From Acidimicrobiales bacterium (GTDB lineage: Bacteria > Actinomycetota > Acidimicrobiia > Acidimicrobiales > AC-14): a stretch of DNA of 28,252 nucleotides. This document shows, one piece after another, positions 2,655 to 19,254 of this stretch. Location: positions 1 through 28,252 of the forward strand of contig DATLGZ010000371.1 in NCBI GenBank assembly GCA_035540235.1, read 5' to 3'. Under the pieces are notes generated by a model. It was not told where the DNA came from, did no database searches, and saw only the letters and a list, made by a program, of their open reading frames with translations. Each line of letters begins with the position of its first letter. The first letter of the stretch is position 1. The translations under genes and the position numbers were made by a program.

Positions 2655-3278
2655 CTACTTGGAGTAGAGCTCGACGATGAGCGACTCGCGCACGGGCACG
2701 TCGATGTGCTCGCGCAGCGGGAGGTCGCGCACCGTTACCGACGTGCGGTCGGGGCCCGCTTCCAGCCAGGGGACGATGGCCCGGTCGATGGTGTCGAGGT
2801 TGTGGCGGAGCACGATCATCGACCGCGACTTCTCCCGCACCTCCACCACGTCGCCCTTGCGCACCTGGTAGCTGGGGATGGTGACGCGCTTGCCGTTGAC
2901 GTTGATGTGCCCGTGGCGCACCCATTGGCGGGACTGGGAGCGGCTGGAGCCCCAGCCCGCCCGGTACACGACGTTGTCGAGCCGCAGCTCGAGCATGCGC
3001 AGGAGGTTCTCGCCGGTGATGCCACCCCGCCGGTTGGCCTCCTCGTACATGTTGCGGAACTGCTTCTCCAGCACGCCGTAGATGCGGCGGGCCTTCTGCT
3101 TCTCCCGCAGCTGGAGCAGGTACTCCGACTCGCGCACCCGCCCCCGGCCGTGCTCGCCGGGCGGGTAGGGGCGCCGCTCGATGGGGCACTTCATCGAGTC
3201 GCACTTGGCGCCCTTGAGGAACAGCTTCATCTTCTCCCGGCGGCACAACCGGCAGACCGGGCCGGTGTAGCGGGCCAT
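2655..3278 (-). CDS. rpsD: 30S ribosomal protein S4 (Zn-motif type)
   Basis: [15 protein letters not shown]...KC...KC...RLDNVVYRAG. ATG 3278 overlaps the rpsK TGA. Confidence 0.98.
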   Translation of the reverse strand: MARYTGPVCRLCRREKMKLFLKGAKCDSMKCPIERRPYPPGEHGRGRVRESEYLLQLREKQKARRIYGVLEKQFRNMYEEANRRGGITGENLLRMLELRLDNVVYRAGWGSSRSQSRQWVRHGHINVNGKRVTIPSYQVRKGDVVEVREKSRSMIVLRHNLDTIDRAIVPWLEAGPDRTSVTVRDLPLREHIDVPVRESLIVELYSK

Positions 3279-3676
3279 CAGACCCTCCGCCGCTTGGGCG
3301 GGCGGCAGCCGTTGTGCGGGATGGGGGTGAGGTCCTTGATCCCGGCCACCTCGATGCCGGCGGTGGTGAGCGAGCGGATGGCGGTCTCCCGCCCCGAGCC
3401 CGGGCCCTTCACCAGCACCTCGACGCGCCGCACGCCATGCTCCATCGCCCGCCGGGCGCACGCCTCGGCGGCCAACTGGGCGGCGAAGGGGGTGGACTTC
3501 CGGGAGCCCTTGAAGCCGACGTTGCCGGCCGACGCCCACGCCAGCACGTTCCCCTCGGGATCGGTGATGGAGATGATCGTGTTGTTGAACGAGCTCTTGA
3601 TGTGCGCCACCCCGTAGGCGACGTTCTTCCGTTCCTTGCGGCGCGGTCGCCGCCCTCCGGGCTTCGGCTTAGCCAC
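3278..3676 (-). CDS. rpsK: 30S ribosomal protein S11
   Basis: [40 protein letters not shown] start with GGAG upstream. Confidence 0.98.
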
Positions 3677-3740
3677 TCCAACTCCAGTCGATGAGATGCT
3701 GACGTCGGCCGTGGCCGCTCTGGTTGCGAGGCGAGACCAT
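3669..3740 (-). other. Intergenic bridging mini-ORF rpsM->rpsK (23 aa, [23 protein letters not shown])
   Basis: ATG overlaps the rpsM stop (TGATG). The TAA lies in the rpsK start region (GTGGCTAA). Translation not demonstrated. Confidence 0.5.
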
Positions 3741-4120
3741 CAGTGCTTCCTGACCTTCTTCTTCCCGGCGACGGTCTTCTTGGGGCCCTTGCGGGTGCGG
3801 GCGTTGGTGTGGGTGCGCTGGCCCCGCACCGGGAGGCCGCGGCGGTGGCGGATGCCCTGGTAGCACTGGATCTCGATCTTGCGCTTGATGTCCTGGGCGA
3901 CGTCGCGCCGCAGGTCACCCTCGACCTTGAGGTTCTGGTCGATGAAGCCCCGCAGGCGGGCGACCTCCTCGTCGGTGAGATCGCGCACCCGGGTGGAGGG
4001 ATCGATCTCCGTGCCCTGGCACACCTGGGCGGCCGTGGTGCGGCCGATGCCGTAGATGTAGGTGAGAGAGATCTCCAGCCGCTTCTCGCGGGGTATGTCG
4101 ACGCCGGCGATGCGGGCCAT
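3740..4120 (-). CDS. rpsM: 30S ribosomal protein S13
   Basis: [10 protein letters not shown]...[26 protein letters not shown]. Confidence 0.98.
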
Positions 4121-4123
4121 CGA

Positions 4124-4237
4124 TCAGCCCTGCCGCTGCTTGTGCCGGGGGTTGACGCAGATGACCATCACCACGCCGTGACGGCGGATCACCTTGCACT
4201 TCTCACAGATCTTCTTGACACTGGGTCGTACCTTCAT
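4124..4237 (-). CDS. rpmJ: 50S ribosomal protein L36 (Zn-binding type)
   Basis: Below the ORF track cutoff. Manual translation [37 protein letters not shown]. Confidence 0.98.
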
Positions 4238-4264
4238 TCCCTGTCCCTGCGGTCGTCGGGCCCG

Positions 4265-4489
4265 CTACTTGTACCGGTAGGTGATGCGGCCTCGGCTGAG
4301 GTCGTAAGGCGTGAGCTCCACCTGCACCCGATCGCCGGGCAGGATGCGGATGTAGTGCATGCGCATCTTGCCGGAGATGTGGGCCAGGACCTTGTGCTTG
4401 TTCTCCAACTCCACGCGGAACATGGCGTTGGGGAGTGACTCGACGACCGTCCCCTCCATGACGATCGTGTCTTCCTTGGGCTTCGGCAG
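4265..4489 (-). CDS. infA: Translation initiation factor IF-1 (probable CTG start)
   Basis: (L)[27 protein letters not shown]...[14 protein letters not shown] lies 5 nt before CTG 4489. Alternative ATG at 4459. Confidence 0.95.
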
Positions 4490-4562
4490 GTGAACCTCCA
4501 ACTGGCGGACTGCGAGCCTCCGGCCGCGCGCATCGGCGCGCCGAGAGGACGCGGAGTTGGCC

Positions 4563-4568
4563 AGTATA
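4563..4568 (-). promoter_or_regulatory. Putative housekeeping -10 element (TATACT) for infA and the alpha operon
   Basis: TANNNT hexamer in the ftsH-infA gap, 73 nt upstream of the infA CTG. Confidence 0.6.
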
Positions 4569-4611
4569 CCCCAGGGAAGATGGCTGCTACTGCCCCGACG
4601 ATGAGGGCGGA

Positions 4612-6429
4612 CTAGCCGGCGGCCACCGCGACCTTCGGGCCACGCAGCTCGCGGGGCACGCCGGCCAGAAGGCGCTCGATCTCGGGCCCGGAGACGGTCT
4701 CGGCCACGAGCAGGCGGTTGGCCAGGGCGTCGAGCGCGCTCCGGTGCCGGCGCAGCACCCGCGCCACCTGGTCCTGGCTCTCGCCCAGCAGGCGGCGGAC
4801 CTCGCTGTCGACGGCGCCGACGACCTCGGCCCCGGTCAGCACGGGCTGCTGCCCGGTGGAGGCCAGCGGGTCGGGGGCCACGCTGACGGGGCCCACCCGC
4901 TCGCTCATGCCGTAGTCGGTGACCATCTTGTGGGCGATCCGGGTGGCGCGGCGCAGGTCGTCCTCCGCCCCCGTGGTCGGCTCGCCGAAGACCAGCTCCT
5001 CGGCCGCCCTCCCTCCCAGCAGCACGGCGAGCTGGCGGGCCAGATCGGAGTGGCTGAACAGCACCCGGTCCTCGGTCGGCATCGAGATGGTGTACCCGTG
5101 CGACCGGCCCCGGCTGACGATCGAGACCTTGTGCACGGCGTGGTCGTTGCCCAGCGCCCACGAGGCCAAGACGTGACCGCTCTCGTGGTAGGCGACCACC
5201 CGCTTCTCGCCCTCGGAGATCACCCGGCTGCGCCGCTGCGGCCCGGCCATCACCCGGTCGACGGCCTCCTCCAGCTCGGCCATGCTCACCAGGCCGCGCC
5301 GCCGCCGCCCGGTCAGGAGGGCGGCCTCGTTCATCACGTTGGCCAGGTCGGCGCCGGTGAAGCCGATCGTCGCCCGGGCCACCGCCCTCAGGTCGGCATC
5401 GGGGTCCAGCGGCTTGTTGCGGGCGTGCACGGCGAGGATCGCCTGCCGGCCGTCGAGGTCGGGGGCGTCGACCACCAGGCGGCGATCGAAGCGCCCGGGC
5501 CGCAGCAGGGCGGGGTCGAGCACGTCGGGCCGGTTGGTGGCGCCCACCACCAGCACGCCCGCCTCCGAGTCGAAGCCGTCCATCTCCAGCAGGAGCTGGT
5601 TGAGCGTGCTCTCCCGCTCCTCCTGCCCGCCGACGGAAAGGCTGGCCCGGGCCCGGCCGATGGCGTCGAGCTCGTCCAGGAAGACGATCGAGGGCGCCGC
5701 CTGGCGGGCCTGCTCGAACACCTCGTGGACACGAGCGGCGCCCACCCCGACGTAGACCTCGACCAGGTTGGCCGCCGACACCACCTGGTAGGGCACCCCT
5801 GCCTCGCCGGCCAGGGCCTTGGTCAAAAGCGTCTTGCCCGTGCCGGGAGGCCCGACCAGGAGGATGCCCTTGGGCAGCTTGGCCCCGAGCGAGCGGAACC
5901 GCTCGGGGTCGAGGAGGTACTCCTTGACCTCGACGAGCTCCTCCACCACGTCGTCCAGCCCGGCCACGTCGCCGAACCGCACGTCGGACAGCTCGGTGCG
6001 GGGCGTGGCCATCTTCACCGCCGGGTGGTGGGACCCGCCCTGAGTGGCCCGAGCGCCGCGACCCTCCGGCGTGGCCCGGGCACCGCCGGCCCCCGCGCCG
6101 GCGCGGTCGGAATGGCGTGGGTCGTGGCGCCGGCCGGCGCGCCGGTGCGACCGCCACCGGCGCCGCCCGGCTGCGGGGGCCCGCCGCTCCGCCACCTCGG
6201 GCAGGAGGATCTCGCCGGACGACGCCGCCATCGGGGCGGTCAGGTCCTCCAGCGTGCTCGTCGGCGGCACGTGGAGGGGGCGGGTGTCGTCGTCGCGCAC
6301 CCGGACGGGGCTCAGGCGCGGCGGCCGCCGGGGTCCGGCGTAAGCCCACCCGGCCAGGGCGGTGGCCAGGATGGCCAGGGTGGAGAGGACGAACAAGGCG
6401 GGAACGGGCAGCTCGGCGATGGGCGGCAT
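4612..6429 (-). CDS. ftsH: FtsH-family ATP-dependent Zn metalloprotease paralog with one N-terminal TM segment
   Basis: Walker A GPPGTGKT, Walker [44 protein letters not shown]. Start at ATG 6429 is uncertain; the ORF is open to 6498. Confidence 0.9.
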
Positions 6430-6558
6430 GGCGTGGCGATCTCCGGGCGAGGGCGGGAGGCGGGAAGCCGTCAGCCCCTGGTTTGGCCGACAGCGCACCC
6501 CTACCCCGGGGAGTGGCCTGGTACTCGCGAGGCGGCGAGCTCCGGCGACCAGTTCAGT

Positions 6559-7302
6559 TCAGTCGAGGACGGTGAGGACCTCGGGCCCGTCGTCGGTGAC
6601 GGCGATGGTGTGCTCGAAGTGGGCCGACAGGCTCCCGTCGGCGGTGACCACAGTCCAGCCGTCGTCGTACATGGCGGTCTCGGGCCCGCCCAGGTTGACC
6701 ATGGGCTCCACGGCGAGGACGTGGCCCACCTTGAGCTTGATGCCCCGCCCGGGCTGGCCGTAGTTGGGCACCTTGGGCTCCTCGTGGAGAGCGGTGCCGA
6801 TGCCGTGCCCCACGTACTCCCGCACGACCGAGTAGCCGGCGCCCTCGGCCACCGTCTGCACGGCGTGGCCGATGTCGGAGACCCGGCTCCCGTCGCGGAC
6901 CCACTTGATCCCCGCCTCCAAGCTCTCGCGGGTAGCCTGCATGAGCCGCTTGGCCTCCTCGTCCACCTCGCCGATCGGGAAGGTGCGGGCCGCGTCGGCG
7001 TGGTAACCCTCGATGATCGCTCCGCAGTCGACCGAGAGGATGTCGCCCTCCTTGAGGCGGTAGGAGCCGGGGATCCCGTGGACGATCACGTCGTTGGGCG
7101 ACGTGCAGATCACCCCCGGAAAGCCGTGGTAGTTGAGGAAGTTCGACCGTGCGCCGCGCCGCTCGAGCACCTGGCGGGCCAGGACGTCGAGGTCGTGAGT
7201 GGTCATCCCGGGCCGGGCCGCCTGCTCGCACGTCTCGAGCATCTCGGCCACCACCCGGCCCGCCCGCCGCATCTTCGCCACCTCTTCCTTGTTCTTGCGC
7301 AC
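6559..7302 (-). CDS. map: Type I methionine aminopeptidase
   Basis: CTSPNDVIVHGIP, DCG...YHADAART, GHGIG..LHEEP, EPM, SAHFEHT. Confidence 0.97.
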   Translation of the reverse strand: MRKNKEEVAKMRRAGRVVAEMLETCEQAARPGMTTHDLDVLARQVLERRGARSNFLNYHGFPGVICTSPNDVIVHGIPGSYRLKEGDILSVDCGAIIEGYHADAARTFPIGEVDEEAKRLMQATRESLEAGIKWVRDGSRVSDIGHAVQTVAEGAGYSVVREYVGHGIGTALHEEPKVPNYGQPGRGIKLKVGHVLAVEPMVNLGGPETAMYDDGWTVVTADGSLSAHFEHTIAVTDDGPEVLTVLD

Positions 7303-7308
7303 GGTTAG

Positions 7309-7314
7309 AACGTA
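7309..7314 (-). promoter_or_regulatory. Putative -10 (TACGTT) for a leaderless map transcript
   Basis: TANNNT exactly 6 nt before the map GTG, in an AT-enriched gap. Confidence 0.5.
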
Positions 7315-7317
7315 CCT

Positions 7318-7977
7318 CTATTCCGGTCGCAACCGGCCCTCGATGCCCCGCAGCAGCCGGGCCGTAACCGTGTCGGCGTCGCCGGTGCCGTCGATCGACG
7401 CCAGCTTGTCCTGGGCGAGGTAGTAGGCGACGAGCGGCTCGGTGCGCTCGGCGTAGAGGTCGAGCCGGCGCTTGATGGCGGCCTCGGTGTCGTCCTCTCG
7501 CTGCACCACCCGCCCGCCGCAGACGTCGCACGTCCAGTCGTCCTTCGGAGGGGTGTCGAGGCTGTAGGGGGCGCCGCAGATCATGCAGACCCGGCGGCTG
7601 GCGATGCGCCGCAGCACGATCTCGGTGGGCACCTCCAGCTCGATCACGAGGTCGACCAGGTCGGAGCCCATCTCCTCGTCGAGGGCCTGGGCCTGCTCGG
7701 CGTTGCGGGGGAAGCCGTCGAGCACGAACCCGTGGCGCGTGTCGTCCTCGGCCAGGCGCACCTCCACCACGCCGATCACCACGTCGTCCGGCACCAGCTC
7801 GCCGGCGTCCATGTACTTCTTGGCCCGGATACCGGCCTCGGTGCCGAGCTCGACGGCGTGGCGGAAGATGTCGCCGGTGGAGATGCGCGGGATCCCGTAG
7901 GTCCGCGCCAGCCTCTCCGCCTGGGTGCCCTTCCCTGCTCCCTGCTTGCCGAGGATCACGAGCCTCGGACCTGCCAT
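7318..7977 (-). CDS. adk: Adenylate kinase with Zn-LID
   Basis: GKQGAGKGTQ, STGDIFR, LDGFPR, CxxC...CxxC lid, REDD. Confidence 0.97.
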   Translation of the reverse strand: MAGPRLVILGKQGAGKGTQAERLARTYGIPRISTGDIFRHAVELGTEAGIRAKKYMDAGELVPDDVVIGVVEVRLAEDDTRHGFVLDGFPRNAEQAQALDEEMGSDLVDLVIELEVPTEIVLRRIASRRVCMICGAPYSLDTPPKDDWTCDVCGGRVVQREDDTEAAIKRRLDLYAERTEPLVAYYLAQDKLASIDGTGDADTVTARLLRGIEGRLRPE

Positions 7978-8006
7978 TGCCGCGCCTTTCGGTCAGTGGC
8001 GAGCCG

Positions 8007-9299
8007 CTACGTGAGGAAACCCTCGTAGTTGCGCATCATGAGCTGGCTGTCGATCTGCTTCATGGTCTCCAGCGCGACGCCCACCGCGATCAGGATCGTC
8101 GTGCCGCCGAAGGGAAAGCTGGTGACGCCGTAGACCGCCAGGGCGATCTGGGGCAGCAGGGCGACCGAGGCAAGGAACAGCGACCCCGGAAGGGTGATGC
8201 GGTTGAGGATGGTGGCGAGGTAGCGCTCGGTGGGCGGGCCGGGCCGGATGCCCGGGATGAACCCGCCCTGCTTGCGGATGATGTCGGCCTGCTGCTGGGG
8301 GTTGAAGGTGATGGCGGTGTAGAAGTACGTGAAGAACACGATCAGCAAGCCATAGATCGTGATGTAGAACACGTTGTCGGGCTGCACCAGGTTGCGGTTG
8401 ATGAAGTCGACCACGGCGCGCCACTGCACGACGTTGGAGAGCAGCACCGGGAAGTACAGCACCGAGCTGGCGAAGATGATCGGGATGACGCCGGCCTGGT
8501 TGACCTTCAGAGGTATGTAGGTGCTCTGGCCGCCGTACATCCGCCGGCCCACGACCCGCTTGGCGAACTGGACGGGGATGCGCCGCTGGCCCTGCTCCAC
8601 GAACACGATGGCCATGATCATCAGCAGGCCGACGACGATGACCAGCGAGAAGACCACGTTGCCGCCCTCGGCCCGTACGCCCCCCACCTGGTACGGCAGG
8701 CGGCTGACCACGTTGGCGAAGATGAGGATCGACATGCCGTTGCCGATCCCCCGCTGGGTGATCAGCTCGCCCATCCACATCACCACCGCGGTGCCGGCGG
8801 TGATGGTCAGCACGATCAGGGCCACATGGGGCACGTCGAAGTTGGTGACGAGCCGGAGGTTGGTGGAGCCGCCGTCGCCCAGCAGGCCGTTGTTGAACTG
8901 GTAGGTGATGCCGGTGGCCTGCAGGATGGCGAGGCCTATCGTCATGTAACGGGTCCACTGGGTGATCTTGCGCTGGCCGATGGCGCCCTGGTTCCGCCAC
9001 TGCTCGATGCGGGGGATGACCACCGCCAGCAGCTGCATGATGATCGAGCTGGTGATGTAGGGCATGATCCCGAGGGCGAACACCGCCATCTGGGTCAGCG
9101 CACCGCCCGAGAACAGGTTGAGGAAGCCCAGGACGCCGCCCCGCTCGGCCTGGCGCTGGAGGTCCTGCACGGCGGCGAAGTCGATGCCGGGGACCGTGAT
9201 GTTCGACCCGAGCCGGTACAGGCCGATGATCATCAGGGTGAACAAGATCTTGTTCCGGAGGTCCGGGATCTTGAACATGTTCTTCATGCTTCCGAACAT
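8007..9299 (-). CDS. secY: Preprotein translocase subunit SecY
   Basis: FALGIMPYITSSII, RRIPVQFAKR, PLKVNQAGVIPIIFA, FIPGIRPG. Confidence 0.98.
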   Translation of the reverse strand: MFGSMKNMFKIPDLRNKILFTLMIIGLYRLGSNITVPGIDFAAVQDLQRQAERGGVLGFLNLFSGGALTQMAVFALGIMPYITSSIIMQLLAVVIPRIEQWRNQGAIGQRKITQWTRYMTIGLAILQATGITYQFNNGLLGDGGSTNLRLVTNFDVPHVALIVLTITAGTAVVMWMGELITQRGIGNGMSILIFANVVSRLPYQVGGVRAEGGNVVFSLVIVVGLLMIMAIVFVEQGQRRIPVQFAKRVVGRRMYGGQSTYIPLKVNQAGVIPIIFASSVLYFPVLLSNVVQWRAVVDFINRNLVQPDNVFYITIYGLLIVFFTYFYTAITFNPQQQADIIRKQGGFIPGIRPGPPTERYLATILNRITLPGSLFLASVALLPQIALAVYGVTSFPFGGTTILIAVGVALETMKQIDSQLMMRNYEGFLT

Positions 9300-9310
9300 G
9301 GCGGCTCGTC

Positions 9311-9799
9311 CTAGCGGTTGGTCAGGGCGCTGCCCCGTGAGGGCGGGCGGCCGTGCTTGTAGGGCGACGGCAACACGTCCACGCTACCGCCCGCCGCCGT
9401 GATCGCGGCCTCGGCCGACTTCGAGAAGGCGTGGGCCGACACCCGCACCGCCCGCGTCAGCTCGCCCCGCCCCAGCACCTTCACCAGGCCGTGTTTCTGC
9501 ACGAGCCCGTGGGCACGGAGGGAGTCGGGGGTGATCTCGGAGCCCTCGAAGCGCTCCAGGGTGTCGAGGTTGACCACCGCGTACTCCACCCGGAAGGGGT
9601 TGGTGAACCCCTTCAGCTTGGGCACGCGGCGAGTGAGGGGCATCTGCCCACCCTCGAACCCCGGCTTGACCCGGTTGCGGGCCCCCTGGCCCTTGGTGCC
9701 CCGACCGGCGGTCTTGCCGCCCTTGCCTCCCGTGCCCCGGCCGACCCGGCGGCGGCCGGCGTTGGACCCGGGGGCGGGCTTGAGCTCGTGGACCTTCAC
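9311..9799 (-). CDS. rplO: 50S ribosomal protein L15
   Basis: GRGTGGKGGKTAGRGTKGQGAR, FEGGQMPL. GTG overlaps the rpmD TGA. Confidence 0.97.
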   Translation of the reverse strand: MKVHELKPAPGSNAGRRRVGRGTGGKGGKTAGRGTKGQGARNRVKPGFEGGQMPLTRRVPKLKGFTNPFRVEYAVVNLDTLERFEGSEITPDSLRAHGLVQKHGLVKVLGRGELTRAVRVSAHAFSKSAEAAITAAGGSVDVLPSPYKHGRPPSRGSALTNR

Positions 9800-9993
9800 C
9801 CTTCTCCTCCTTCCTCGACCCTGACCAGGTGGGTGACCTGGGCCACCATCCCCCTGATCTCGGGCCGATCGGGCAGGACGCGCCGCTTGCCGATACGCCC
9901 CAGGCCCAGCGCCCTCAGCGTGCCGCGGTGCTTGGGCTTCGAGCCGATGGCGGAGCGGACCTGCACGACGGTGATCTCGCCCGACGGGGCCAT
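9796..9993 (-). CDS. rpmD: 50S ribosomal protein L30
   Basis: ITVVQVRSAIGSKPKHRGTLRALGL...IRGMV. ATG overlaps the rpsE stop. Confidence 0.96.
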   Translation of the reverse strand: MAPSGEITVVQVRSAIGSKPKHRGTLRALGLGRIGKRRVLPDRPEIRGMVAQVTHLVRVEEGGEG

Positions 9994-10541
9994 CACGCCA
10001 CCTCGACGGGGGTGTGAGGGCCGCGCTTGGTCTCCTTGTAGGCCCGCAGCAGCCCGCTGGGGGTGACCTCCTCGGGCGACTTGCCGCGGGCGGCCGCCAC
10101 CTCGTCGGGCCGCTTGAGGGCCTGGAGGCCGGCGATGGTGGCGTGGGCGACGTTGATGGCGTTGGACGACTTGAGCGACTTGGCCAGGATGTCGTGGATG
10201 CCCGCCGCCTCCAGGATGGCCCGGGCCGCGCCGCCGGCGATGACACCCGTGCCGGGGGCGGCCGGCTTGAGCAGGACCCGGCCTGCCCCGCGGGCGCCGA
10301 GCACGGGGTGGGTGATGGTGGAGCCGGCCAGGGGGACGTCGAAGAGGTTCTTGCGGGCCTCCTCGATGCCCTTCTGGATGGCGGCCGGCACCTCCTTGGC
10401 CTTGCCGTAGCCCAGGCCGACCCGGCCCGCGCCGTCGCCCACCACCACCAGCGCGGTGAACGAGAACCGCCGGCCGCCCTTGACGACCTTGGCGACCCGG
10501 TTGATGTCGATCACTCGTTCTTCGTACTGGTTCTCTGCCAT
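9993..10541 (-). CDS. rpsE: 30S ribosomal protein S5
   Basis: [34 protein letters not shown]. Confidence 0.98.
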
Positions 10542-10586
10542 GCGCTTCCTTCCCGGGCGGCTGCCTCAGTGGGCGCCCCCGCGGCG

Positions 10587-10955
10587 TCAGAACTCCAAGC
10601 CCGCCTCTCGGGCGGCGTCGGCCACGGCCGCGACCCGGCCGTGGTACAGGTTGCCGCCCCGGTCGAACACGACCTTGGTCACGCCGGCGGCCCTGGCTCG
10701 CTCGCCCACCAGCTGGCCCACCCTGGCCGCCGCCGCCTTGTTGCCGGTGGGCCCGCCGCTGCGCAGGTCGGCCTCGACCGTGCTGGCGGCGGCGAGGGTG
10801 CGGCCCGCCACGTCGTCGATGACCTGGGCGGTGATGTGCTTGTTGGAACGGAAGACCGCCAGCCGCGGCCGTTGCGCGGTTCCCCGGACCAGCTTGCGCA
10901 CCCGCCGGTGCCGGCGCGTCCGCGCCTGCTGCTTCTGCTTCGTGGAAAACGTCAT
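10587..10955 (-). CDS. rplR: 50S ribosomal protein L18
   Basis: [37 protein letters not shown] 10955 preceded by GGAGG. Confidence 0.97.
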
Positions 10956-11035
10956 GCGGTCCCTCCACCCAATGAGGCGGTCACCTCGGAGGTGGCCATG
11001 GCGACCACAACCGTGACCAGAACGGGGGTCGTCAC
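10952..11035 (-). other. Intergenic bridging mini-ORF rplF->rplR (27 aa, [27 protein letters not shown])
   Basis: GTG overlaps the rplF stop (GTGA). TGA overlaps the rplR start (ATGA). Confidence 0.5.
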
Positions 11036-11571
11036 TTGGCCGCCTTCCCGGCCTTGCGGCGCACGACCTCGCCGGCGTAGCGGACGCCCTTGCCCTTGTA
11101 GGGCTCGGGCTTGCGCAGCTTGCGGATGTTGGCCGCCACCTGGCCGACCGCCTCCTTGTCGTTGCCCCGCACGGTGATGCGAGTGGGGGCGGGAACCTCG
11201 AAGGTGATCCCCTCGGGCGCCTCCATCCGCACCGGGTGGCTGAAGCCGAGGGCCAGCTCGATCGTGCTCGGCCCCTGGGCCGTGGCCCGGTAGCCGACGC
11301 CCACGATCTCCAGGTCCTTCTGGAAGCCCTGGGTGACGCCCACGACCATGTTGCTGACCAGCGTGCGGGTGAGCCCGTGCAGGGCGCGGTGCTGGCGCTC
11401 GTCGTCGGGCCGCTCGACCACCAGCACGTCGCCGTCCTGGCGCACGGTGATGTCGGGCGGCAGGACGCGCTCCAGCGAGCCGCGCGGGCCCTTGACCGCG
11501 ACTCGGCGGCCGTCGAGGGTGACATCGACGCCCGAGGGTACGGGGATGGGGGCTCGGCCGATTCGGGACAT
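11032..11571 (-). CDS. rplF: 50S ribosomal protein L6
   Basis: [26 protein letters not shown]. Confidence 0.98.
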
Positions 11572-11580
11572 GTCGCTACC

Positions 11581-11985
11581 TCACCACACGTAACAGAGGA
11601 TCTCGCCGCCGACGCGGCGCTCCCGGGCCTCTCGGTCGGTCATCAGGCCCTGGCTGGTGGACAGCACCGCCACGCCCAGGCCGCCCAGCACCCGGGGGAG
11701 GCGGTCGGCCTTGGTGTAGACCCGCAGGCCCGGCTTGGACACCCGCCGGATGCCGGTGATCGTCGGCACCCGTTCGGTGCTGTACTTCAGGTCGATCTCG
11801 AGCGTGCGCCCGGGGCGGCCCGGATGCTCGCTCACCCTGAAGTCGACGACGTACCCCTCCCGGCGGAGGATGGCGGCGAGCGCCTCCTTCAGCTTGGAGG
11901 AGGGCATGCGTACCGTCTCCTGGGCCGCCACGCTCCCGTTGCGGATACGGGTGAGCATGTCGGCGATCGGGTCGGTCATCGTCAT
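11581..11985 (-). CDS. rpsH: 30S ribosomal protein S8
   Basis: [33 protein letters not shown]. Confidence 0.98.
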
Positions 11986-12005
11986 AGTGCCGCTCCTCCT
12001 CTCAC
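11982..12005 (-). other. Intergenic bridging mini-ORF rpsN->rpsH (7 aa, MRGGAAL)
   Basis: GTG AGA GGA GGA GCG GCA CTA TGA, with GTGA and ATGA overlaps at the two ends. Confidence 0.4.
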
Positions 12006-12187
12006 CAGCTCGACTTCGTGACGCCCGGCACCTCGCCGGCGTGGGTCATCTCCCGCAGGCAGATCCGGCACAGCCCGAAGGCCCGCAGCACCGCCCGCGA
12101 GCGCCCGCACTTGCGGCAGCGCGTGTAGGCCCGCACCTTGAAACGGGGCTTGCGGGCCTGCTTGATCATCAGGGACTTCTTGGCCAT
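12002..12187 (-). CDS. rpsN: 30S ribosomal protein S14, type Z (Zn-binding)
   Basis: 61 aa, RCRKCGR...GLCRIC. Confidence 0.98.
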
Positions 12188-12817
12188 TTAGGTGGAGCCC
12201 TCCCGACGGAAGGGGAAGCCGAAGGCGTCGAGCAGAGCCCGGCCGCCGGCGTCGTCCTGCGCCGTCGTCACGATGGTGATGTCCATTCCGCGGACGGTGT
12301 CGATCTTGTCGTAGTCGATCTCGGGGAAGATGAGCTGCTCGTTCACGCCGAACGTGTAGTTGCCGCGGCCGTCGAAGGCGTTGGCGGGGAGCCCCCGGAA
12401 GTCCCGGATGCGGGGGATCGTGACGCTGATGAGGCGGTCGAGGAACTCCCACATGCGGTCGCCCCGGAGGGTGACCTTGGCGCCGATGGCGTTGCCCTCC
12501 CGCAGCTTGAAGGCGGCGATGGAGCGGCGAGCCCGGGTGACCAGCGGCTTCTGGCCCGTGATCAGGGTGAGGTCGTTGACCGCGCCCTCGAGGAGCGACG
12601 CCTGCTGGGTGGCCTTGCCCACGCCCATGTTGACCACGATCTTCTCGAGCCGGGGAACCTGCATGACGTTGGCCAGGCCCCGCTGGTCCTTGATCCGAGC
12701 TTGCAGCTCGTCGCGGTAGCGGAGCTTGAGCCGGGGCGGCTCGCGGGGGGCCAGCGGCTCGTTGGAGGGCGCCCCGTCCCGCTGCTTCCTCTTCTGGTCC
12801 TTGGCAGTCGTGGCCAT
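12188..12817 (-). CDS. rplE: 50S ribosomal protein L5 (N-terminal extension)
   Basis: [46 protein letters not shown] 12817 preceded by GGAGG. Confidence 0.97.
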
Positions 12818-12840
12818 CAGTTCGATCCTCCGCCGATCAC
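12817..12840 (-). other. Intergenic bridging mini-ORF rplX->rplE (7 aa, MIGGGSN)
   Basis: GTG ATC GGC GGA GGA TCG AAC TGA, with GTGA and TGATG overlaps. Confidence 0.4.
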
Positions 12841-13139
12841 AGCTCTCCCTTGCACTTCTTGCAGATGCGGATCTTCTCTCTGCCCGAGATCCGGTAGCCG
12901 ATGCGGGTCGGACCGCAGCTGCCGCACACGATGGCCACGTTGGAGGCCGGCAGCGGCATGTCCTTGTCGATGATGCCGGCCTGCATGGTGGCCCGCAGGG
13001 CACGCTGGTGCTTCTTGGCCACGTTCACGCCCTCGACGATCACCCGGTCCTCCTTGGGGAGCACGCGCATGATGTCGCCCTCGTCGCCCCGGTCCTTCCC
13101 GGTGAGGACCCTGACCCGGTCACCCTTCTTGAGCTTCAT
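12837..13139 (-). CDS. rplX: 50S ribosomal protein L24
   Basis: [28 protein letters not shown]. CxxC...CxxC at the C-terminus. Confidence 0.97.
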
Positions 13140-13507
13140 CACAACACCTCCGGCGCCAGCGACACGATGCGCATGAACTTCTTGTCCCGCAGCTCCCGAC
13201 CCACGGGGCCGAAGATGCGGGTGCCCCGGGGCTGGAGCGCGTCGTTGATGAGGACGGCAGCGTTCTCGTCGAAGCGGATGTAGGAGCCGTCGGGGCGCCG
13301 GTTCTCCTTCTTGGTGCGCACGACGACGCACTTGACCACGTCGCCCTTCTTCACCGCCGCCCCCGGGATGGCGTCCTTGACGGTGCCGACGATGATGTCG
13401 CCGATCGAGGCGTAGCGGCGCTTCGAGCCCCCCAGCACCTTGATGCAGAGGACCTCCTTGGCCCCCGAGTTGTCTGCCACCCGGAGCCGCGTCTCCTGCT
13501 GGATCAC
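13139..13507 (-). CDS. rplN: 50S ribosomal protein L14
   Basis: [35 protein letters not shown]. Confidence 0.98.
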
Positions 13508-13536
13508 TGTGCCGTCCTGTCGTTTGTGGAGCTCAC
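13504..13536 (-). other. Intergenic bridging mini-ORF rpsQ->rplN (10 aa, [10 protein letters not shown])
   Basis: GTG overlaps the rpsQ stop. TGA overlaps the rplN GTG (GTGA at both ends). Confidence 0.45.
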
Positions 13537-13826
13537 TTCGCCCTCTCCAGGATCTGCACGACGCGCCACCGCTTGAGCTTCGACATGGGGCGCGTCTCCA
13601 TGAGGCGGACCCGGTCGCCCAACTTGGCGTCGTTGGCCTCGTCGTGGGCGTGGAACCGCTTCGTGCGCTGGACCGTCTTGTCGTAGCGGGGGTGACGCAC
13701 CCGCTCGATCACGGCCACCACCGCGGTCTTGTCGCCGGCGGTGGAGACCACCACCCCCTCCCGGACCTTGCGGCGGTTGGGGCGGGGCGTCGATGCGGCC
13801 GGCGAGGAGGCGGACTGGTCAGCCAC
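13533..13826 (-). CDS. rpsQ: 30S ribosomal protein S17
   Basis: GVVVS..DKT.VV, HPRY.K, AHDE, ETRPMSK.KRW. Confidence 0.97.
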
Positions 13827-14052
13827 GACGGCTCCCTTCGTGTTCGGCCGCCTCGGCGGCGGCTATCTCCCGCTCCCTCAGCAGACCGTTGATGCGGGCC
13901 ACCTCCCTGCGGAGCTGTCCCAGGCGGGCGTAGTTGTCGAGCTGGCCGGTGACGTGCTGGAACCGCAGGTTGAACAGCTCGTGCTTGCTCTCGACCAGGC
14001 GGGTCTGCAGCTCGTCGTCGTCCATGTCTCGCAGCTCGGAAGGCTTGGGCAT
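13819..14052 (-). CDS. rpmC: 50S ribosomal protein L29
   Basis: [16 protein letters not shown]...RREVARI. ATG 14052 overlaps the rplP stop. Confidence 0.96.
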
Positions 14053-14468
14053 CAGATCTCCTCCGACCGCACGACGACCTTGGCCTTGATGGGCAGCTTC
14101 TGGATGGCCCGCTCGAGGGCCTCCCGGGCCAGCGCCTCGTTGACGCCCGCCAGCTCGAACATGATCCGCCCGGGCTTCACCACCGCCACCCAGTGCTCGG
14201 GGTTGCCCTTGCCCGACCCCATGCGGGTCTCGGCCGGCTTCTGAGTGACGGGCTTGTCGGGGAAAACGTTGATGAAGACCTTTCCCCCACGCTTGATGTG
14301 GCGGGTCATGGCGATACGGGCGGCCTCGATCTGGCGGGCCGTGATCCACCCCGGCTCCAGGGCCTGGATGCCGTAGTCGCCGTAGTTGATGGTGGTGCCG
14401 CCCTTGGCCGTGCCGGTCATCCGGCCACGGTGCTGCTTGCGGTGCTTGACCCGTCGGGGCATCAACAT
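14052..14468 (-). CDS. rplP: 50S ribosomal protein L16
   Basis: [30 protein letters not shown]. Confidence 0.98.
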
Positions 14469-14482
14469 GGCATGGACCTCAC
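14462..14482 (-). other. Intergenic bridging mini-ORF rpsC->rplP (6 aa, MRSMPC)
   Basis: GTG AGG TCC ATG CCA TGT TGA. The stop lies inside the rplP ATG-TTG-ATG start. Confidence 0.4.
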
Positions 14483-15396
14483 TCGTCCCCGCTGCGGAAG
14501 TGCGGGGTCTCGTGGTGCTGGCGCGTGCGCCGCTCGATCTCCTCCTCCTCGGCGAGGAGGCGCTCCAGCTCGGGGTCGGCCTCCTTCACCACCGGGCCGG
14601 TGTCGACGGGGAGCTCGCCGTCGGGCGGGACGGGCACGCCTTCCTCGCCCTCGGGACGGCGGCGGCCGCCGCCGGCGGAGATGATGCGCCGGGGCCGGGC
14701 CGGGCCGGACGTCTCGCCCACCGCCATGCCCGCCTCCCGGGAGATCTTGTCCTCCATCGACGTGCGGTAGGGGAGGATGTCGCCCTTGTAGATCCACACC
14801 TTCACGCCGATGCGCCCGAAGGTGGTGCGGGCCTCGCGGAACCCGTAGTCGATGTCGGAGCGGAGGGTGTGCAAGGGCACCCGCCCCTCGCGGTACCACT
14901 CGCTGCGGGCCATCTCCGAGCCGCCCAGGCGTCCCGAGCACTGGACGCGGATGCCCTGGGCCCCCGCCTTCTGGGCGGTCTGCACGGCCCGCTTCATCGC
15001 CCGCCGGAAGCTGACCCGCCCGGCCAGCTGGTCGGCCACGCCCTGAGCGATGAGGGCGGCATCCAGCTCGGGCTGGCGGATCTCCTGGATGTTGAGCTGG
15101 ATCTTGACGTTGCCGGTCAGCTTGGCCAGGTCGGCGCGGAGGCGATCGGCCTCGGCGCCCCGGCGGCCGATGACGATGCCGGGTCGGGCGGTGTGGACGT
15201 CGACCCGGAGGCGGTCACGCGTGCGCTCCACCTCGATGCGGCTGATGGCGGCGTGAGGCAGCTGGCGCATCAGGTAGTCGCGGATCTTCCAGTCCTCGAT
15301 GAGGTAGTCGGTGTAATCACGGTCGCTGAACCAGCGCGACTTCCAGTCGGTGGTGACACCGAGCCGGAACCCGTAGGGGTTGACCTTCTGACCCAT
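14479..15396 (-). CDS. rpsC: 30S ribosomal protein S3 with long C-terminal extension
   Basis: [37 protein letters not shown]. Confidence 0.98.
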
Positions 15397-15400
15397 TGCG

Positions 15401-16135
15401 CTACTCGGCCCTCTCGTCGTCGTTGCTCGTGGCGTCGTCGGTGGTCTCGGTGGCCCCCGCGGTGTCGGCGTCGGCGGGAGCGGCGTCGGCGGGAGCGGCG
15501 ACCTCGGTCTCCGGTTCGGGTGCGGCGACCGGGTCGATCTCCGGCTCCAACTCGGGTGCGGCGGTGGCGCCTACCGGCGCCGCCTCCTGGTCCTGGTCGC
15601 GGCGGCGGCTCGCCTGCACCCGGCGCTCGCGCTCGGGTGACGGCCCGCTGCGGCTCACCCGCCGGCGCCGGTCGGCCGCGCCCGGGACCCGGGCTGCTCG
15701 CCGCTTCCGCAACTCGGTCTCGGGCAGGCGGCTGACGACCACCGTCACGTGGCAGGTGCGCTTGCGGATTCGGGTCGCCCGACCCCTCGCTCGGGGACGC
15801 CAGCGCTTGAGCGTGGGCCCCTCGTCGGCGTAGCACGCCGACACGAACAGCTCCTCGGCCGGCACCTCGCCGTTGTGCTCGGCGTTGGCGATGGCCGAGC
15901 GCAGCACCTTGCCGACCACCGCGGCGGCGTCGCGCTCGCAGAACTGCAGGGTCTCCTGGGCCCGCTCGGCGTCCTGGCCGCGGATGAGGTCGAGCACCTC
16001 CCGGACCTTGTAGGCCGACACCCGCACGTAGCGGGCGACCGCCCGCGCCGACGTGCCCCCCGGCTCCACCGCCCGGGCCGGGCCGGTGGGGCTGGTGCGC
16101 AGGACAGGCTGCTCGTTGAGCTTGGGACCGGTCAT
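15401..16135 (-). CDS. rplV: 50S ribosomal protein L22 with N- and C-terminal extensions (244 aa)
   Basis: [51 protein letters not shown] 16135 lies 2 nt after the rpsS stop. Confidence 0.93.
15466..15500. repeat. 15-bp tandem repeat (CGGCGTCGGCGGGAG x2.3) in the L22 tail
   Basis: Two exact copies plus CGGCG, encoding AAPAD repeats. Confidence 0.85.
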
Positions 16136-16137
16136 GG

Positions 16138-16416
16138 CTACCTCCGGCCCGACCGTTCCTGGCCGGCGTGGAAGCGGAAGGTGCGGGTCAGAGCGAACTC
16201 GCCCAGCTTGTGGCCCACCATGGCCTCGGTGATGTAGACGGGCACGTGCTTGCGCCCGTCGTGGACGGCGATTGTGTGGCCGACCATGTCGGGGATGATC
16301 GTGGACCGCCGGGACCACGTCTTGATCACCCGCTTCTCGCCGCGGGAGTTGAGGTCGTCGACCTTCCTGAGCAGGTGGTCGTCGACGAACGGCCCCTTCT
16401 TGACACTTCTGCTCAT
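16138..16416 (-). CDS. rpsS: 30S ribosomal protein S19
   Basis: [32 protein letters not shown]. Confidence 0.98.
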
Positions 16417-16514
16417 CGGGTGGCCACCTCCGGTGGCTGCCCCGATGACCGGAAGGCGCATGACATGGCGCTGTGCTCCTCCGCTGCGCTTCGGTGCTCG
16501 ATTGTCCTGCTCAT
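16413..16514 (-). other. Intergenic bridging mini-ORF rplB->rpsS (33 aa), MIRU-like architecture
   Basis: ATGA overlap with the rplB stop and ATGA overlap with the rpsS start. Sequence [33 protein letters not shown]. Confidence 0.55.
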
Positions 16515-17347
16515 CGGCGGGCTCCACGGGTACGGCGCCGCCGCACGATCAGGCGCTGGGACGGCTTGTTCTTCTTGCGGGTGCGACCCTCGGGCTTGCC
16601 CCAGGGCGACACGGGATGGCGGCCCCCGGACGACTTGCCCTCGCCGCCGCCCAGGGGGTGGTCGACAGGGTTCATGGCCACGCCCCGGGTCTGGGGGCGG
16701 ACCCCCCGCCACCGGTTCCGGCCTGCCTTGCCCAGGGAGGTGAGCTCGGCCTCCGGGTTGCCGACCTCGCCCACGGTGCCCCGGCAGTCGATGGGTACCC
16801 GGCGCATCTCGGTGCTGGGCAGGCGGAGGGTGGCGAAGTCGCCCTCCTTGGCCACCAGCTGGATGGCGGACCCTGCGCCCCGGCCCATCTTGCCGCCGCC
16901 GCCCGGCTTCAGCTCCACGTTGTGCACGGTGGTGCCGACGGGGATGTACCGCAACGGCAGGGCGTTGCCCGGCCGGATCTCGGCCTTCTGGCCGCTCTGC
17001 AGGACGTCGCCCACCTTCACCCGGGCCGGGGCGAGGATGTAGCGCTTCTCGCCGTCGACGTAGTGGAGCAGGGCGATGCGGGCGTTGCGGTTGGGGTCGT
17101 ACTCGATGGCTGCGACCTTGGCCGGGATGTCGTCCTTGGTGCGCTTGAAGTCGATGATGCGGTACTGCTGCTTGTGGCCGCCGCCGCGGTGGCGGGCGGT
17201 CTTGCGGCCGTAGCTGTTGCGGCCGCCCGACTTGGGCAGGGGGGCCAGCAGCGACTTCTCGGGAGTGGTCTTGGTGATCTCCGAGAAGTCCGACACCGTC
17301 TGGAACCGGCGGCCGGCACTCGTCGGCTTGCGCTTGCGAAGGGGCAT
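16511..17347 (-). CDS. rplB: 50S ribosomal protein L2
   Basis: [38 protein letters not shown]. Confidence 0.98.
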
Positions 17348-17360
17348 GTCTGCTACCGCC

Positions 17361-17651
17361 TCACGTCTCGAACAGGTCGATCCGGTTGCCGGCCGACAGG
17401 GTGACGATGGCCCGCTTGGTGTCGGGGCGCTTGCCGAAGGTGGGGAGGCGCCGGTTGCGCTTGCGCTTCCCCTTGCGGTTGAGGGTGTTCACCTTGGTGA
17501 CCCGAACGTTGAAGATCTGCTCCACCGCGTCGCGGATCTGGATCTTGGTGGCGTCGGAACGGACGATGAAGGTGTACACGTTGTCATCGAGCAGGGCGTA
17601 GGACTTCTCGCTCACGACCGGCCGCAGGACGACGTCGCGCGGATCGCTCAC
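17361..17651 (-). CDS. rplW: 50S ribosomal protein L23
   Basis: [12 protein letters not shown]...[21 protein letters not shown]. Confidence 0.97.
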
Positions 17652-19247: not shown

Positions 19248-19254
19248 CGGTACC

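What the first reader, a model, noticed from the sequence alone, without database searches (positions are those of the whole stretch)
3669..17364. Systematic stop-to-start 'bridge' mini-ORFs spanning the gaps between ribosomal protein genes
Seen: ten ribosomal protein genes end in TGA and are followed by a gap of 9 nt or more (rplW, rplB, rpsC, rpsQ, rplX, rpsN, rpsH, rplF, rplR, rpsM). In nine, an ATG or GTG overlaps that TGA and opens a stop-free mini-ORF. In seven, the mini-ORF stop overlaps the next gene's start: rplB>rpsS 33 aa, rplF>rplR 27 aa, rpsM>rpsK 23 aa, rpsQ>rplN 10 aa, rplX>rplE 7 aa, rpsN>rpsH 7 aa, rpsC>rplP 6 aa. The rplW and rpsH mini-ORFs end 5 and 4 nt before the next ATG. 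Only rplR>rpsE lacks one. Known: (A/G)TGA and TGATG overlaps mediate translational coupling by termination-reinitiation, and mycobacterial MIRUs carry small ORFs with this geometry. Inference: unannotated micro-ORFs relay ribosomes across the gaps, keeping the supercluster coupled and stoichiometric. Caveat: G before TGA is common at high GC3, so the landing of the stop on the next start is the informative part.
Basis: partly seen in the sequence, partly recalled or inferred. Interest (0 to 1): 0.8.

Follow-up and report, generated by a model that had tools for sequence, protein, structure and literature searches.

The report
Relay mini-ORFs bridging ribosomal-protein gene gaps
In this uncultured Acidimicrobiia bacterium, most gaps between ribosomal-protein genes hold a tiny reading frame that starts on the stop codon of one gene and ends on the start codon of the next; relatives keep that phasing while gap length and sequence change, as in the MIRU repeats of mycobacteria.

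Summary
The r-protein cluster is on the minus strand. All ten TGA-ended genes, their gaps and the mini-ORF lengths are as stated. Five mini-ORF stops lie on the next start codon. Two (rpsC>rplP, rpsM>rpsK) end 4-5 nt inside the next gene.

It is not chance. With shuffled spacers and random phase, 1.1 exact bridges are expected and 5 are seen (P=6e-4). Shifting the spacer phase by 1-2 nt removes all of them. The same control gives 26 versus 0-3 in 15 loci of the same family, and 26 versus 3-7 in the rest of this genome. The signal is weak outside the family.

Upstream proteins end at the same residue in relatives, so the spacers are insertions, several into former (A/G)TGA or TGATG overlaps. 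The 94-nt rplB>rpsS spacer belongs to a dispersed, tandemly expandable repeat bounded by ATGA, with a 27-31-codon frame and a hairpin holding the Shine-Dalgarno sequence (SD). This is MIRU-like. The rplF>rplR spacer holds a fragment of a palindromic repeat. The short spacers are unique.

Best reading: the old start codons still fire, and only spacers that hand ribosomes to the next gene survive. Translation itself is untested. The design is known from MIRUs, and this scan has noted it before in other Acidimicrobiia.

The parts
17353..17364 (-). rplW>rplB mini-ORF GTG-AGG-CGG-TAG. It starts in the GTGA of the rplW stop and ends 5 nt before the rplB ATG (17347).
   Evidence: The same 3-codon frame is present in L001, L026 and L028.
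16413..16514 (-). rplB>rpsS bridge of 33 codons, ATGA to ATGA. It is a copy of a dispersed MIRU-like repeat. A hairpin (GCCACC/GGUGGC) holds the SD, and an outer helix (UCAUCGGG/CCCGAUGA) pairs the rpsS AUG.
   Evidence: fold z=-2.58; repeat hits in 41 of 58 family genomes; nhmmer E=7e-19; compensatory pairs. The closest relative G001 has an intact GTGA overlap at this junction.
14462..14482 (-). rpsC>rplP mini-ORF of 6 codons, from GTGA to the TGA at +4 of rplP (ATGTTGATG).
   Evidence: All seven family loci with an (A/G)TGA stop and an alignment-confirmed rplP start have gaps of 1, 7, 7, 10, 31, 37 or 160 nt, all 1 mod 3, and dock on the same TGA; L002 (41 nt, 2 mod 3) has an unconfirmed start and was set aside.
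13504..13536 (-). rpsQ>rplN bridge of 10 codons, GTGA to GTGA.
   Evidence: Five family relatives (L002, L004, L006, L007, L008) have the plain GTGA overlap here; L022, from another family of the order, has an ATGA overlap. Filled sites of 13, 13, 22, 25 and 160 nt are all in phase.
12817..12840 (-). rplX>rplE bridge of 7 codons, from GTGA to TGATG. The spacer carries GGAGGA.
   Evidence: Relatives have a 1-nt TGATG or TAATG overlap at this junction.
11982..12005 (-). rpsN>rpsH bridge of 7 codons, GTGA to ATGA. Both contexts are fixed by conserved residues: Trp-stop upstream and Met-Thr downstream.
   Evidence: Among TGA-ended loci in the listing the gaps are 7, 13, 16 or 70 nt (1 mod 3) in 10 loci (9 of the family, plus L022 of another family) and 15 nt in one, L020.
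11576..11584 (-). rpsH>rplF mini-ORF GTG-AGG-TAG. It ends 4 nt before the rplF ATG (11571).
10952..11035 (-). rplF>rplR bridge of 27 codons, GTGA to ATGA. Positions 10999-11025 are the left arm of a palindromic repeat that is dispersed in this genome.
   Evidence: (26 nt at 96% to C269, E=9e-6). Family gaps of 10, 10, 55, 76, 142, 145 and 169 nt are all in phase, and L002 has the plain ATGA overlap.
10542..10586 (-). rplR>rpsE spacer of 45 nt, the one exception. It has CTGA and no overlapping start. rplR ends in a Phe codon (TTC), which cannot supply a purine before TGA.
   Evidence: L008 bridges this junction with a TGATG start instead.
3669..3740 (-). rpsM>rpsK mini-ORF of 23 codons. It starts at TGATG because rpsM ends in a His codon (CAC), so a start one base before the stop is impossible. 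It stops at a TAA 5 nt inside rpsK.
   Evidence: L003 (15 nt) and L021 (45 nt, rpsK start not confirmed by alignment) use the same start type and the same TAA. G003 (L001, 56 nt) has lost the phase. It is not a dispersed repeat.

Best explanation
The gaps are insertions at r-protein gene junctions, several of which were once 4-nt (A/G)TGA or 1-nt TGATG stop/start overlaps. The insertion leaves the old start codon sitting on the upstream stop, and the downstream start keeps its own ATGA, GTGA or TGATG context. Inferred mechanism: ribosomes finishing the upstream gene restart on that old start as before. They translate the spacer, opening any hairpin that hides the downstream SD and AUG. They then terminate on a UGA that overlaps, or lies within 5 nt of, the real start, and restart there. 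Only spacers of the right length mod 3 and free of stops in that frame allow this, so only they persist. At least one spacer (rplB>rpsS) is a mobile MIRU-like repeat built to satisfy this rule. One (rplF>rplR) carries a decayed palindromic repeat. The 10-25-nt spacers are unique sequences under the same constraint. Shown here: the geometry, the excess over controls, the phase conservation in the family, the insertion origin and the repeat membership. Inferred: that the mini-ORFs are translated and that the hand-over matters for expression.
For: Geometry. Window-only chance test: 5 exact bridges against 1.10 expected, P=5.5e-4. Matched phase-shift control, real versus delete 1, delete 2, insert 1, insert 2 nt: window contig 5 vs 0,0,0,0; rest of own genome 26 vs 3,7,7,3 over 551 co-directional pairs; 28 loci of relatives 31 vs 0,6,6,0; same family alone 26 vs 0,3,3,0. 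Junctions with a start on the stop have gap mod 3 = {1:57, 0:17, 2:11}. Those without have {1:29, 0:48, 2:30}. About 33 distinct junction-length states are in phase. At rpsC>rplP, rpsQ>rplN, rpsN>rpsH and rplF>rplR, about 20 different lengths are in phase against 1-2 that are not. Upstream proteins end at identical residues in relatives, and empty sites are plain overlaps. Where the last sense codon ends in a pyrimidine, 6 of 15 family spacers begin with TG, making TGATG. The figure is 3 of 56 after a purine, and the TG dinucleotide makes up about 4% of spacer positions. The rplB>rpsS spacer is a dispersed repeat with ATGA at both ends, unit lengths of 80 and 92 nt (2 mod 3) and tandem dimers. 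The mini-ORF is intact and docked on a long downstream ORF in 16 of 20 copies. Its SD hairpin has 3 pairs with compensatory changes. Literature: coupling efficiency falls when the stop-start distance grows by less than 20 nt, and MIRUs insert at start codons with an ORF coupled at -4 nt (PMC12548453). MIRUs have tetranucleotide direct repeats, and their ORF ends overlap the flanking genes (PMC3184786).
Against: There is no ribosome profiling, proteomic or reporter evidence. The organism is an uncultured MAG. Most downstream genes have their own SD inside the spacer, so they could initiate independently. Two window mini-ORFs stop early (rplW, rpsH), two dock 4-5 nt inside the next gene, and one junction has no bridge. 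G003 has lost the phase at rpsM>rpsK. The excess is weak outside the family: 20 vs 4,14,15,4 in 61 other Acidimicrobiia loci and 2 vs 0,1,1,0 in 18 other Actinomycetota. Relatives are not independent, so P values across them overstate. My genome-wide background rests on a home-made gene caller.
Confidence: 0.7

Rival explanations
1. Damage limitation only. The old start codon still fires after an insertion, and selection merely removes spacers whose frame would run far out of frame into the next gene or extend it. The surviving phase (1 mod 3) is the one that meets a stop soonest. Hand-over of ribosomes plays no positive part.
For: In this high-GC genome the frame reached with gap = 0 mod 3 is nearly stop-free inside genes (GC3 about 95%), so such ORFs would be long. 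Most downstream genes have their own SD in the spacer. The ATGA at the downstream start is inherited, not newly selected.
Against: It does not explain why the frame is also kept stop-free across spacers of 55-178 nt. An early stop would limit damage equally well, yet 13 of 27 long family spacers run exactly to the start and 16 of 27 when the two near-miss dockings are counted. It does not explain the conserved hairpin that buries the SD and AUG in the repeat. It does not explain the TGATG starts found where a purine before the stop is impossible.
Confidence: 0.15
2. Chance in a stop-poor, high-GC genome, combined with shared ancestry of the loci compared.
For: Stop codons are rare at 70-74% GC. 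With phase kept, shuffling alone gives 3.2 expected bridges against 5. Many relatives share junction states by descent.
Against: Phase-shift controls give 0-7 where 26-31 are seen. Many different spacer lengths at the same junction are all in phase. The baseline for a purine before TGA is only about 30%.
Confidence: 0.03
3. The mini-ORFs are relics of longer C-terminal tails of the upstream genes, cut short by a frameshift, or artefacts of start-codon choice.
For: The bridge frame equals the frame an upstream gene would have if it ended on the downstream ATGA. A +1 shift in a high-GC gene meets TGA quickly.
Against: L2, L6, S13, S14, S17 and S3 end at the same residues in relatives with and without spacers. 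Starts were accepted only where the alignment reaches residue 1 on a start codon. One spacer is a mobile repeat.
Confidence: 0.02
4. The spacers are r-protein autoregulatory RNA structures or encode functional micro-proteins.
For: The rplB>rpsS spacer folds better than shuffles (z=-2.58). The repeat's peptide (MSEHRSEAEERSS...) recurs among copies.
Against: The window has no Rfam family hit. Spacer sequences are not conserved between orthologous junctions. The other four spacers tested (rplF>rplR, rpsM>rpsK, rplR>rpsE, rpsQ>rplN) do not fold better than shuffles. The recurring peptide reflects DNA repeat identity at unrelated loci. Lengths range from 2 to 56 codons.
Confidence: 0.05

Closest known systems
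MIRUs, mycobacterial interspersed repetitive units (Supply et al. 1997, as summarised in PMC12548453 and PMC3184786)
   Same: Both are short (40-100 bp) dispersed repeats at gene junctions or start codons in operons. Both have tetranucleotide direct repeats at the ends, filled and empty sites between relatives, and tandem copies. Both carry an ORF in the gene orientation whose start and stop overlap the flanking genes, read as a way to keep translational coupling. The rplB>rpsS spacer and its family show all of these.
   Different: The lineage differs (Acidimicrobiia, not Mycobacterium), and sequence relatedness to MIRUs was not tested. Most bridges in this window are unique 10-25-nt spacers, not repeats. 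Here the rule is shown as a phase constraint on spacers in general, across at least three unrelated repeat families and non-repeat spacers.
Translational coupling by termination-reinitiation at ATGA/TGATG overlaps (reviewed in PMC12548453)
   Same: Each end of a bridge has the classic -4 or -1 overlap geometry. This genome uses such overlaps at 330 of 1206 co-directional pairs.
   Different: Two overlaps are chained through a non-conserved mini-ORF, instead of one overlap between two genes.
Short upstream ORFs that 'deliver' ribosomes to a downstream gene, and bicistronic-design expression cassettes (PMC12548453, citing Shell et al. 2015 and Sun et al. 2021)
   Same: A short ORF with no conserved product ends on the start of the real gene and removes the effect of inhibitory structure at the ribosome-binding site.
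   Different: Here the short ORF is itself fed by a terminating ribosome from the upstream cistron, and it sits inside an operon, not in a 5' leader. Some repeat copies in relatives do sit at apparent 5' ends.
REP/BIME-type extragenic palindromic repeats
   Same: The repeat whose fragment lies in the rplF>rplR spacer is a roughly 50-nt palindrome. At least 30 paired copies were found, often in tandem with a 72-nt period, and most often between convergent genes.
   Different: No associated transposase was looked for. When it lies between co-directional genes it can be read through: on contig C97 a 52-codon bridge spans two copies.

Membership tests
MIRU-like junction repeat (applies to the rplB>rpsS spacer) | Dispersed repeat of about 40-100 bp with many copies per genome | tested here: met
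   matches in 41 of 58 family genomes, up to 18 per genome, with full-length copies of 80-92 nt. The tally includes three unpublished genomes (G013, G018, G042); without them it is 38 of 55. The window's own 83%-complete, fragmented assembly holds only this one copy.
MIRU-like junction repeat (applies to the rplB>rpsS spacer) | Sits on a start codon or stop/start overlap, with a 4-nt direct repeat at both ends and filled versus empty sites in close relatives | tested here: met
   ATGA bounds both ends of the window copy. In the listing, ATGA or GTGA precedes 17 of 20 fetched copies and follows 19 of 20. Same-genus G001 has the bare GTGA overlap and G003 has a 10-nt gap.
MIRU-like junction repeat (applies to the rplB>rpsS spacer) | Carries an ORF in the gene orientation whose start and stop overlap the flanking genes | tested here: met
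   in 16 of 20 copies a 27-31-codon ORF (41 in one) runs from the 5' ATGA to the TGA that overlaps the start of a long downstream ORF. About seven copies also follow a coding-like upstream ORF.
MIRU-like junction repeat (applies to the rplB>rpsS spacer) | Tandem copies of variable number | tested here: met
   Dimers in L121 (80-nt units) and L126 (92-nt units), each unit a separate ATGA-to-ATGA ORF. A 33-nt module forms arrays with a 43-48-nt period. The window copy is single.
MIRU-like junction repeat (applies to the rplB>rpsS spacer) | Sequence homology to mycobacterial MIRUs | not tested
   No MIRU sequence was available from a tool, and typing one from memory would be unreliable. The element is therefore filed as MIRU-like by design, not as a MIRU.
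Termination-reinitiation coupling | Stop and next start overlap or lie within a few nucleotides | tested here: met
   At the upstream end, 9 of 10 junctions have a start on the stop. At the downstream end, 5 stops lie on the start codon, 2 lie 4-5 nt inside the gene and 2 lie 4-5 nt before it.
Termination-reinitiation coupling | Downstream translation depends on translation of the upstream frame | not testable with these tools
   This needs reporters or ribosome profiling. The only indirect support is phase conservation.
Conserved small protein gene | Peptide sequence and length conserved at orthologous positions | tested here: not met
   Orthologous spacers differ in length (1-178 nt) and sequence. 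Only phase is kept.

The most novel reading that the evidence does not exclude
In this Acidimicrobiia family, internal cistrons of operons depend so much on ribosome hand-over that intergenic spacers are under purifying selection on reading phase alone. They would be ORFs kept for the act of translation, not for a product. Several unrelated mobile repeat families would then have converged on an ATGA-to-ATGA, 2-mod-3 design to colonise gene junctions, including the ribosomal-protein operons, without breaking expression.
Probability: 0.35. Interest if true: 0.7.

Novelty: new variant of a known kind. Interest (0 to 1): 0.55.

Why it matters
Whether translational coupling works by RNA unfolding or by the same ribosome restarting is still debated (PMC12548453). 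This lineage offers a natural experiment. Dozens of independent insertions sit at junctions whose flanking codons are fixed by conserved proteins, and the surviving spacers keep reading phase and a stop-free frame but not sequence. A scanning-only or unfolding-only view does not predict that pattern. A relay of termination-reinitiation events does. The result extends the MIRU design beyond mycobacteria and beyond repeats. It shows that even the most conserved operons can host such insertions. It also has a practical side for annotation: these mini-ORFs are neither genes nor noise, and spacer length mod 3 can help place start codons. The repeat with its SD-in-hairpin module is a ready-made natural bicistronic-design element for high-GC hosts.

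Tried and rejected
1. Relic-tail or frameshift origin: rejected, because upstream proteins end at the same residue with and without spacers.
2. All long spacers being copies of one repeat: rejected. The rpsM>rpsK spacer has only chance-level matches in 58 family genomes. The rplB>rpsS and rplF>rplR spacers belong to different families.
3. Known RNA families, promoters or terminators in the spacers: no Rfam hit in the window. No minus-strand promoter-like or terminator-like site in 3200-17800.
4. Strong structure as a general feature: only the rplB>rpsS spacer folds better than shuffles. The rplF>rplR, rpsM>rpsK, rplR>rpsE and rpsQ>rplN spacers do not.
5. Generality across the class or phylum: the excess is weak in 61 other Acidimicrobiia loci and absent in 18 other Actinomycetota loci. 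The claim is limited to the window's family.
6. Earlier scan notes: a look-up by the sequence of the rplF>rplR spacer found nothing.
7. No gene caller was available in the Python box. I wrote a codon-score caller that recovered nearly all r-protein starts in the window. It misses genes shorter than 50 codons, and it calls some real small genes as 'bridges', for example a 44-codon membrane protein on C435 and a 92-codon ferredoxin-like gene on C32.
8. Sequencing-run, structure-prediction and complex tools were not used, because none bears on translation of a mini-ORF in an uncultured organism.

Full report
WHAT IS THERE. The window is about 70% GC. It is the whole of contig C371 of a 2.39-Mb, 518-contig, 83%-complete MAG. 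The nearest public records are titled uncultured Acidimicrobiaceae, Acidimicrobiales or Acidimicrobiia. The str/S10/spc/alpha ribosomal-protein cluster lies on the minus strand, from fusA (23565-25682) to rplQ (1315-1668). I fixed each start by the conserved N-terminus. A codon-score gene caller I wrote later recovered nearly all of these starts independently.

CHECK OF THE OBSERVATION. One search prints every junction. Five mini-ORF stops overlap the next start codon itself. The rpsC>rplP stop is the TGA in ATGTTGATG, at +4 of rplP. The rpsM>rpsK stop is a TAA at +5 of rpsK. The rplW and rpsH frames stop 5 and 4 nt short of the next ATG. rplR>rpsE has none. Seven of the ten gaps are 1 mod 3, the only phase in which a frame opened on the upstream stop can close on the downstream start.

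IS IT MORE THAN CHANCE? In the window alone, shuffling each spacer and randomising its phase gives 1.10 expected exact bridges against 5 observed (P=5.5e-4). With phase kept, shuffling gives 3.2, so the signal is mostly gap length mod 3. As a matched control I deleted or inserted 1-2 nt in mid-spacer, which keeps both codon contexts. The window contig then gives 5 real bridges against 0,0,0,0. The rest of the genome gives 26 against 3,7,7,3 over 551 co-directional pairs with gaps of 9-150 nt. A purine before TGA is found at only 26-37% of comparable genes, against 8 of 10 here.

RELATIVES. I fetched the orthologous cluster from 31 loci of the same order. None comes from the genomes flagged unpublished. 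I kept only junctions where the alignment reaches residue 1 on a start codon. For gaps of 9 nt or more, junctions with a start on the upstream stop have gap mod 3 = {1:57, 0:17, 2:11}. Those without have {1:29, 0:48, 2:30}. Thirty-six are exact bridges. The phase-shift control gives 31 against 0,6,6,0. Splitting by kinship, the same family gives 26 against 0,3,3,0 and other families of the order give 5 against 0,3,3,0. Sixty-one further Acidimicrobiia loci give 20 against 4,14,15,4, and 18 other Actinomycetota give 2 against 0,1,1,0. The rule is therefore strong in this family and weak or absent elsewhere.

Within the family it holds for short spacers (9-30 nt: 13 against 0-2) and long ones (31-200 nt: 13 against 0-1, with 20 of 27 being 1 mod 3). 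The same junction carries many lengths, all in phase:
- rpsC>rplP: 1, 7, 10, 31, 37, 160 nt
- rpsQ>rplN: 13, 22, 25, 160 nt
- rpsN>rpsH: 7, 13, 16, 70 nt, against one locus with 15 nt
- rplF>rplR: 10, 55, 76, 142, 145, 169 nt

At rpsN>rpsH both codon contexts are forced by conserved residues (Trp-stop, Met-Thr), so phase is the only free variable. Relatives are not independent. The variety of lengths argues for many separate events, but the P values should be read loosely.

ORIGIN OF THE SPACERS. L2, L6, S13, S14, S17 and S3 end at the same residue whether or not a spacer follows. At several junctions the empty state in relatives is a plain (A/G)TGA or TGATG overlap. Examples are rplB/rpsS in same-genus G001, rpsQ/rplN in six loci, rplX/rplE in most loci and rplF/rplR in L002. 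The spacers are therefore insertions that leave the old start on the upstream stop, and they are not frameshifted tails.

The 94-nt rplB>rpsS spacer matches 41 of 58 family genomes, with up to 18 hits each. Three of those genomes are unpublished (G013, G018, G042), and 38 of 55 remain without them. Twenty fetched copies align over about 90 nt. In that listing ATGA or GTGA precedes 17 copies and follows 19. Units of 80 and 92 nt (2 mod 3) form tandem dimers in L121 and L126. In 16 of 20 copies a 27-31-codon frame (41 in one; MSEHRSEAEERSS...) ends on the start of a long ORF. The window's peptide is a diverged version, and nhmmer places the window copy in the family at E=7e-19.

A 6-bp hairpin that holds GGAGG in its loop and 3' arm is 96% paired, with compensatory changes at three pairs. 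An outer helix pairs the terminal CCCGAUGA, which contains the downstream AUG, with an internal UCA(U/G)CGGG in 84% of cells. This helix is perfect in the window copy.

The rplF>rplR spacer contains the left arm of a different repeat, a palindrome dispersed in this genome with at least 30 paired copies and a 72-nt tandem period. On contig C97 two tandem copies of it are spanned by a 52-codon bridge. Two more repeat families occupy different r-protein junctions in other genera, all bridged. The rpsM>rpsK spacer and the short spacers are unique sequences.

A DETAIL THAT FITS A TRANSLATED RELAY. The start one base before the stop needs a purine as the last base of the upstream gene. rplR ends in Phe (TTC) and rpsM ends in His (CAC), so that start is impossible there. 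rpsM uses TGATG instead. In the family, 6 of 15 spacers after such pyrimidine-ended genes begin with TG. The figure is 3 of 56 after purine-ended genes, and the TG dinucleotide makes up about 4% of spacer positions. Part of this is inheritance from former TGATG overlaps.

HOW IT MOST LIKELY WORKS. Established background comes from the review PMC12548453. Coupling is strongest at -4 and -1 overlaps and falls off within 20 nt. It is explained by ribosome re-use, by RNA unfolding, or by both. MIRUs insert at start codons with an ORF coupled at -4 nt. PMC3184786 adds that MIRUs are 40-100 bp, have tetranucleotide direct repeats, show filled and empty sites, and carry ORFs whose ends overlap the neighbouring genes. 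My reading is a two-step relay. A terminating ribosome restarts on the old (A/G)UG, reads the spacer while melting any hairpin over the SD and AUG, stops on the UGA at the real start, and restarts there. The steps from restart on the old codon onwards are inference.

The main rival keeps translation of the mini-ORF but denies the hand-over: selection only removes phases that would run far into the next gene. It does not explain why long spacers stay stop-free right up to the start, or why the repeat buries its own SD and AUG.

COMPARISON AND NOVELTY. By design this is the MIRU principle. The rplB>rpsS element meets every structural MIRU criterion I could test, but homology to MIRUs was not tested. 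Three things go beyond the published picture I could find. The same phase rule governs non-repeat spacers of 10-25 nt. It operates in the ribosomal-protein supercluster. It is shared by several unrelated repeat families in one Acidimicrobiia family. The scan itself has already noted MIRU-like relay repeats in other Acidimicrobiia and actinobacterial genomes, and a note on this window describes the same rplB>rpsS hairpin. I rate this as a new variant of a known kind, of moderate interest.

Noticed in passing
window 10999-11025; own-genome contigs C137:13493-13686, C97, C269, C437, C506, C509 and others: A palindromic repeat of about 50 nt (arms CGTTCTGGTCACCGT / ACGGTGACCAGAACG, flanked by C-run and G-run). 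At least 30 paired copies exist in this genome, often in tandem with a 72-nt period. It lies most often between convergent genes, like REP/BIME elements. On C97 two tandem copies between co-directional genes are spanned by a 52-codon ATGA-to-GTGA frame.
   Followed up: partly
L113, L116, L118, L120, L121, L128, L129 (copies of the rplB>rpsS-type repeat in relatives): Several copies have no coding-like sequence upstream. They sit 7-8 nt after a -10-like hexamer (TAGAGT, TAGCCT, TATTGT, TATCCT). The mini-ORF may therefore be translated from a leaderless mRNA and pass ribosomes to the first gene.
   Followed up: no
L003 rpsC>rplP, L005 rplF>rplR, L021 rpsQ>rplN; also L004 rplF>rplR, L004 rplN>rplX, L007 rplF>rplR: Two further repeat families of 140-180 nt occupy different r-protein junctions in different genera of the family. 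Every copy is in phase as a bridge.
   Followed up: partly
L001 (G003) rpsM>rpsK: The same-genus relative has a 56-nt spacer that begins like the window's (TGATGGT...). It is 2 mod 3 and its mini-ORF stops 21 nt early, so the phase is lost. This shows the rule is not absolute.
   Followed up: no
window 15401-16135 (rplV) and 14479-15396 (rpsC), minus strand: L22 is 244 aa, with a long Ala/Pro/Glu/Arg-rich C-terminal extension. S3 is 305 aa, with an acidic C-terminal tail. Both tails vary in relatives (53-63% identity for L22 in L001 and L002, against 85-96% for S3 and 90-92% for L2).
   Followed up: no
window 19018-22018: Three kb lie between rpsJ and rplC. They hold a Rieske-like [2Fe-2S] domain gene (21509-21865), a metallo-beta-lactamase-fold gene (19931-21430) and a plus-strand ORF (19255-19944). 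These assignments come from motifs seen in the translations only.
   Followed up: no
window 4612-6429: An FtsH-like AAA+/Zn-protease paralog lies between map and infA, with a Pro/Arg/Ala-rich N-terminal linker. It is absent from this position in same-genus G003 (L001).
   Followed up: no
own genome, all contigs: Of 1206 co-directional neighbour pairs called, 283 overlap by 4 nt ((A/G)TGA) and 47 overlap by 1 nt. About 27% of such pairs are therefore directly stop/start-overlapped.
   Followed up: yes
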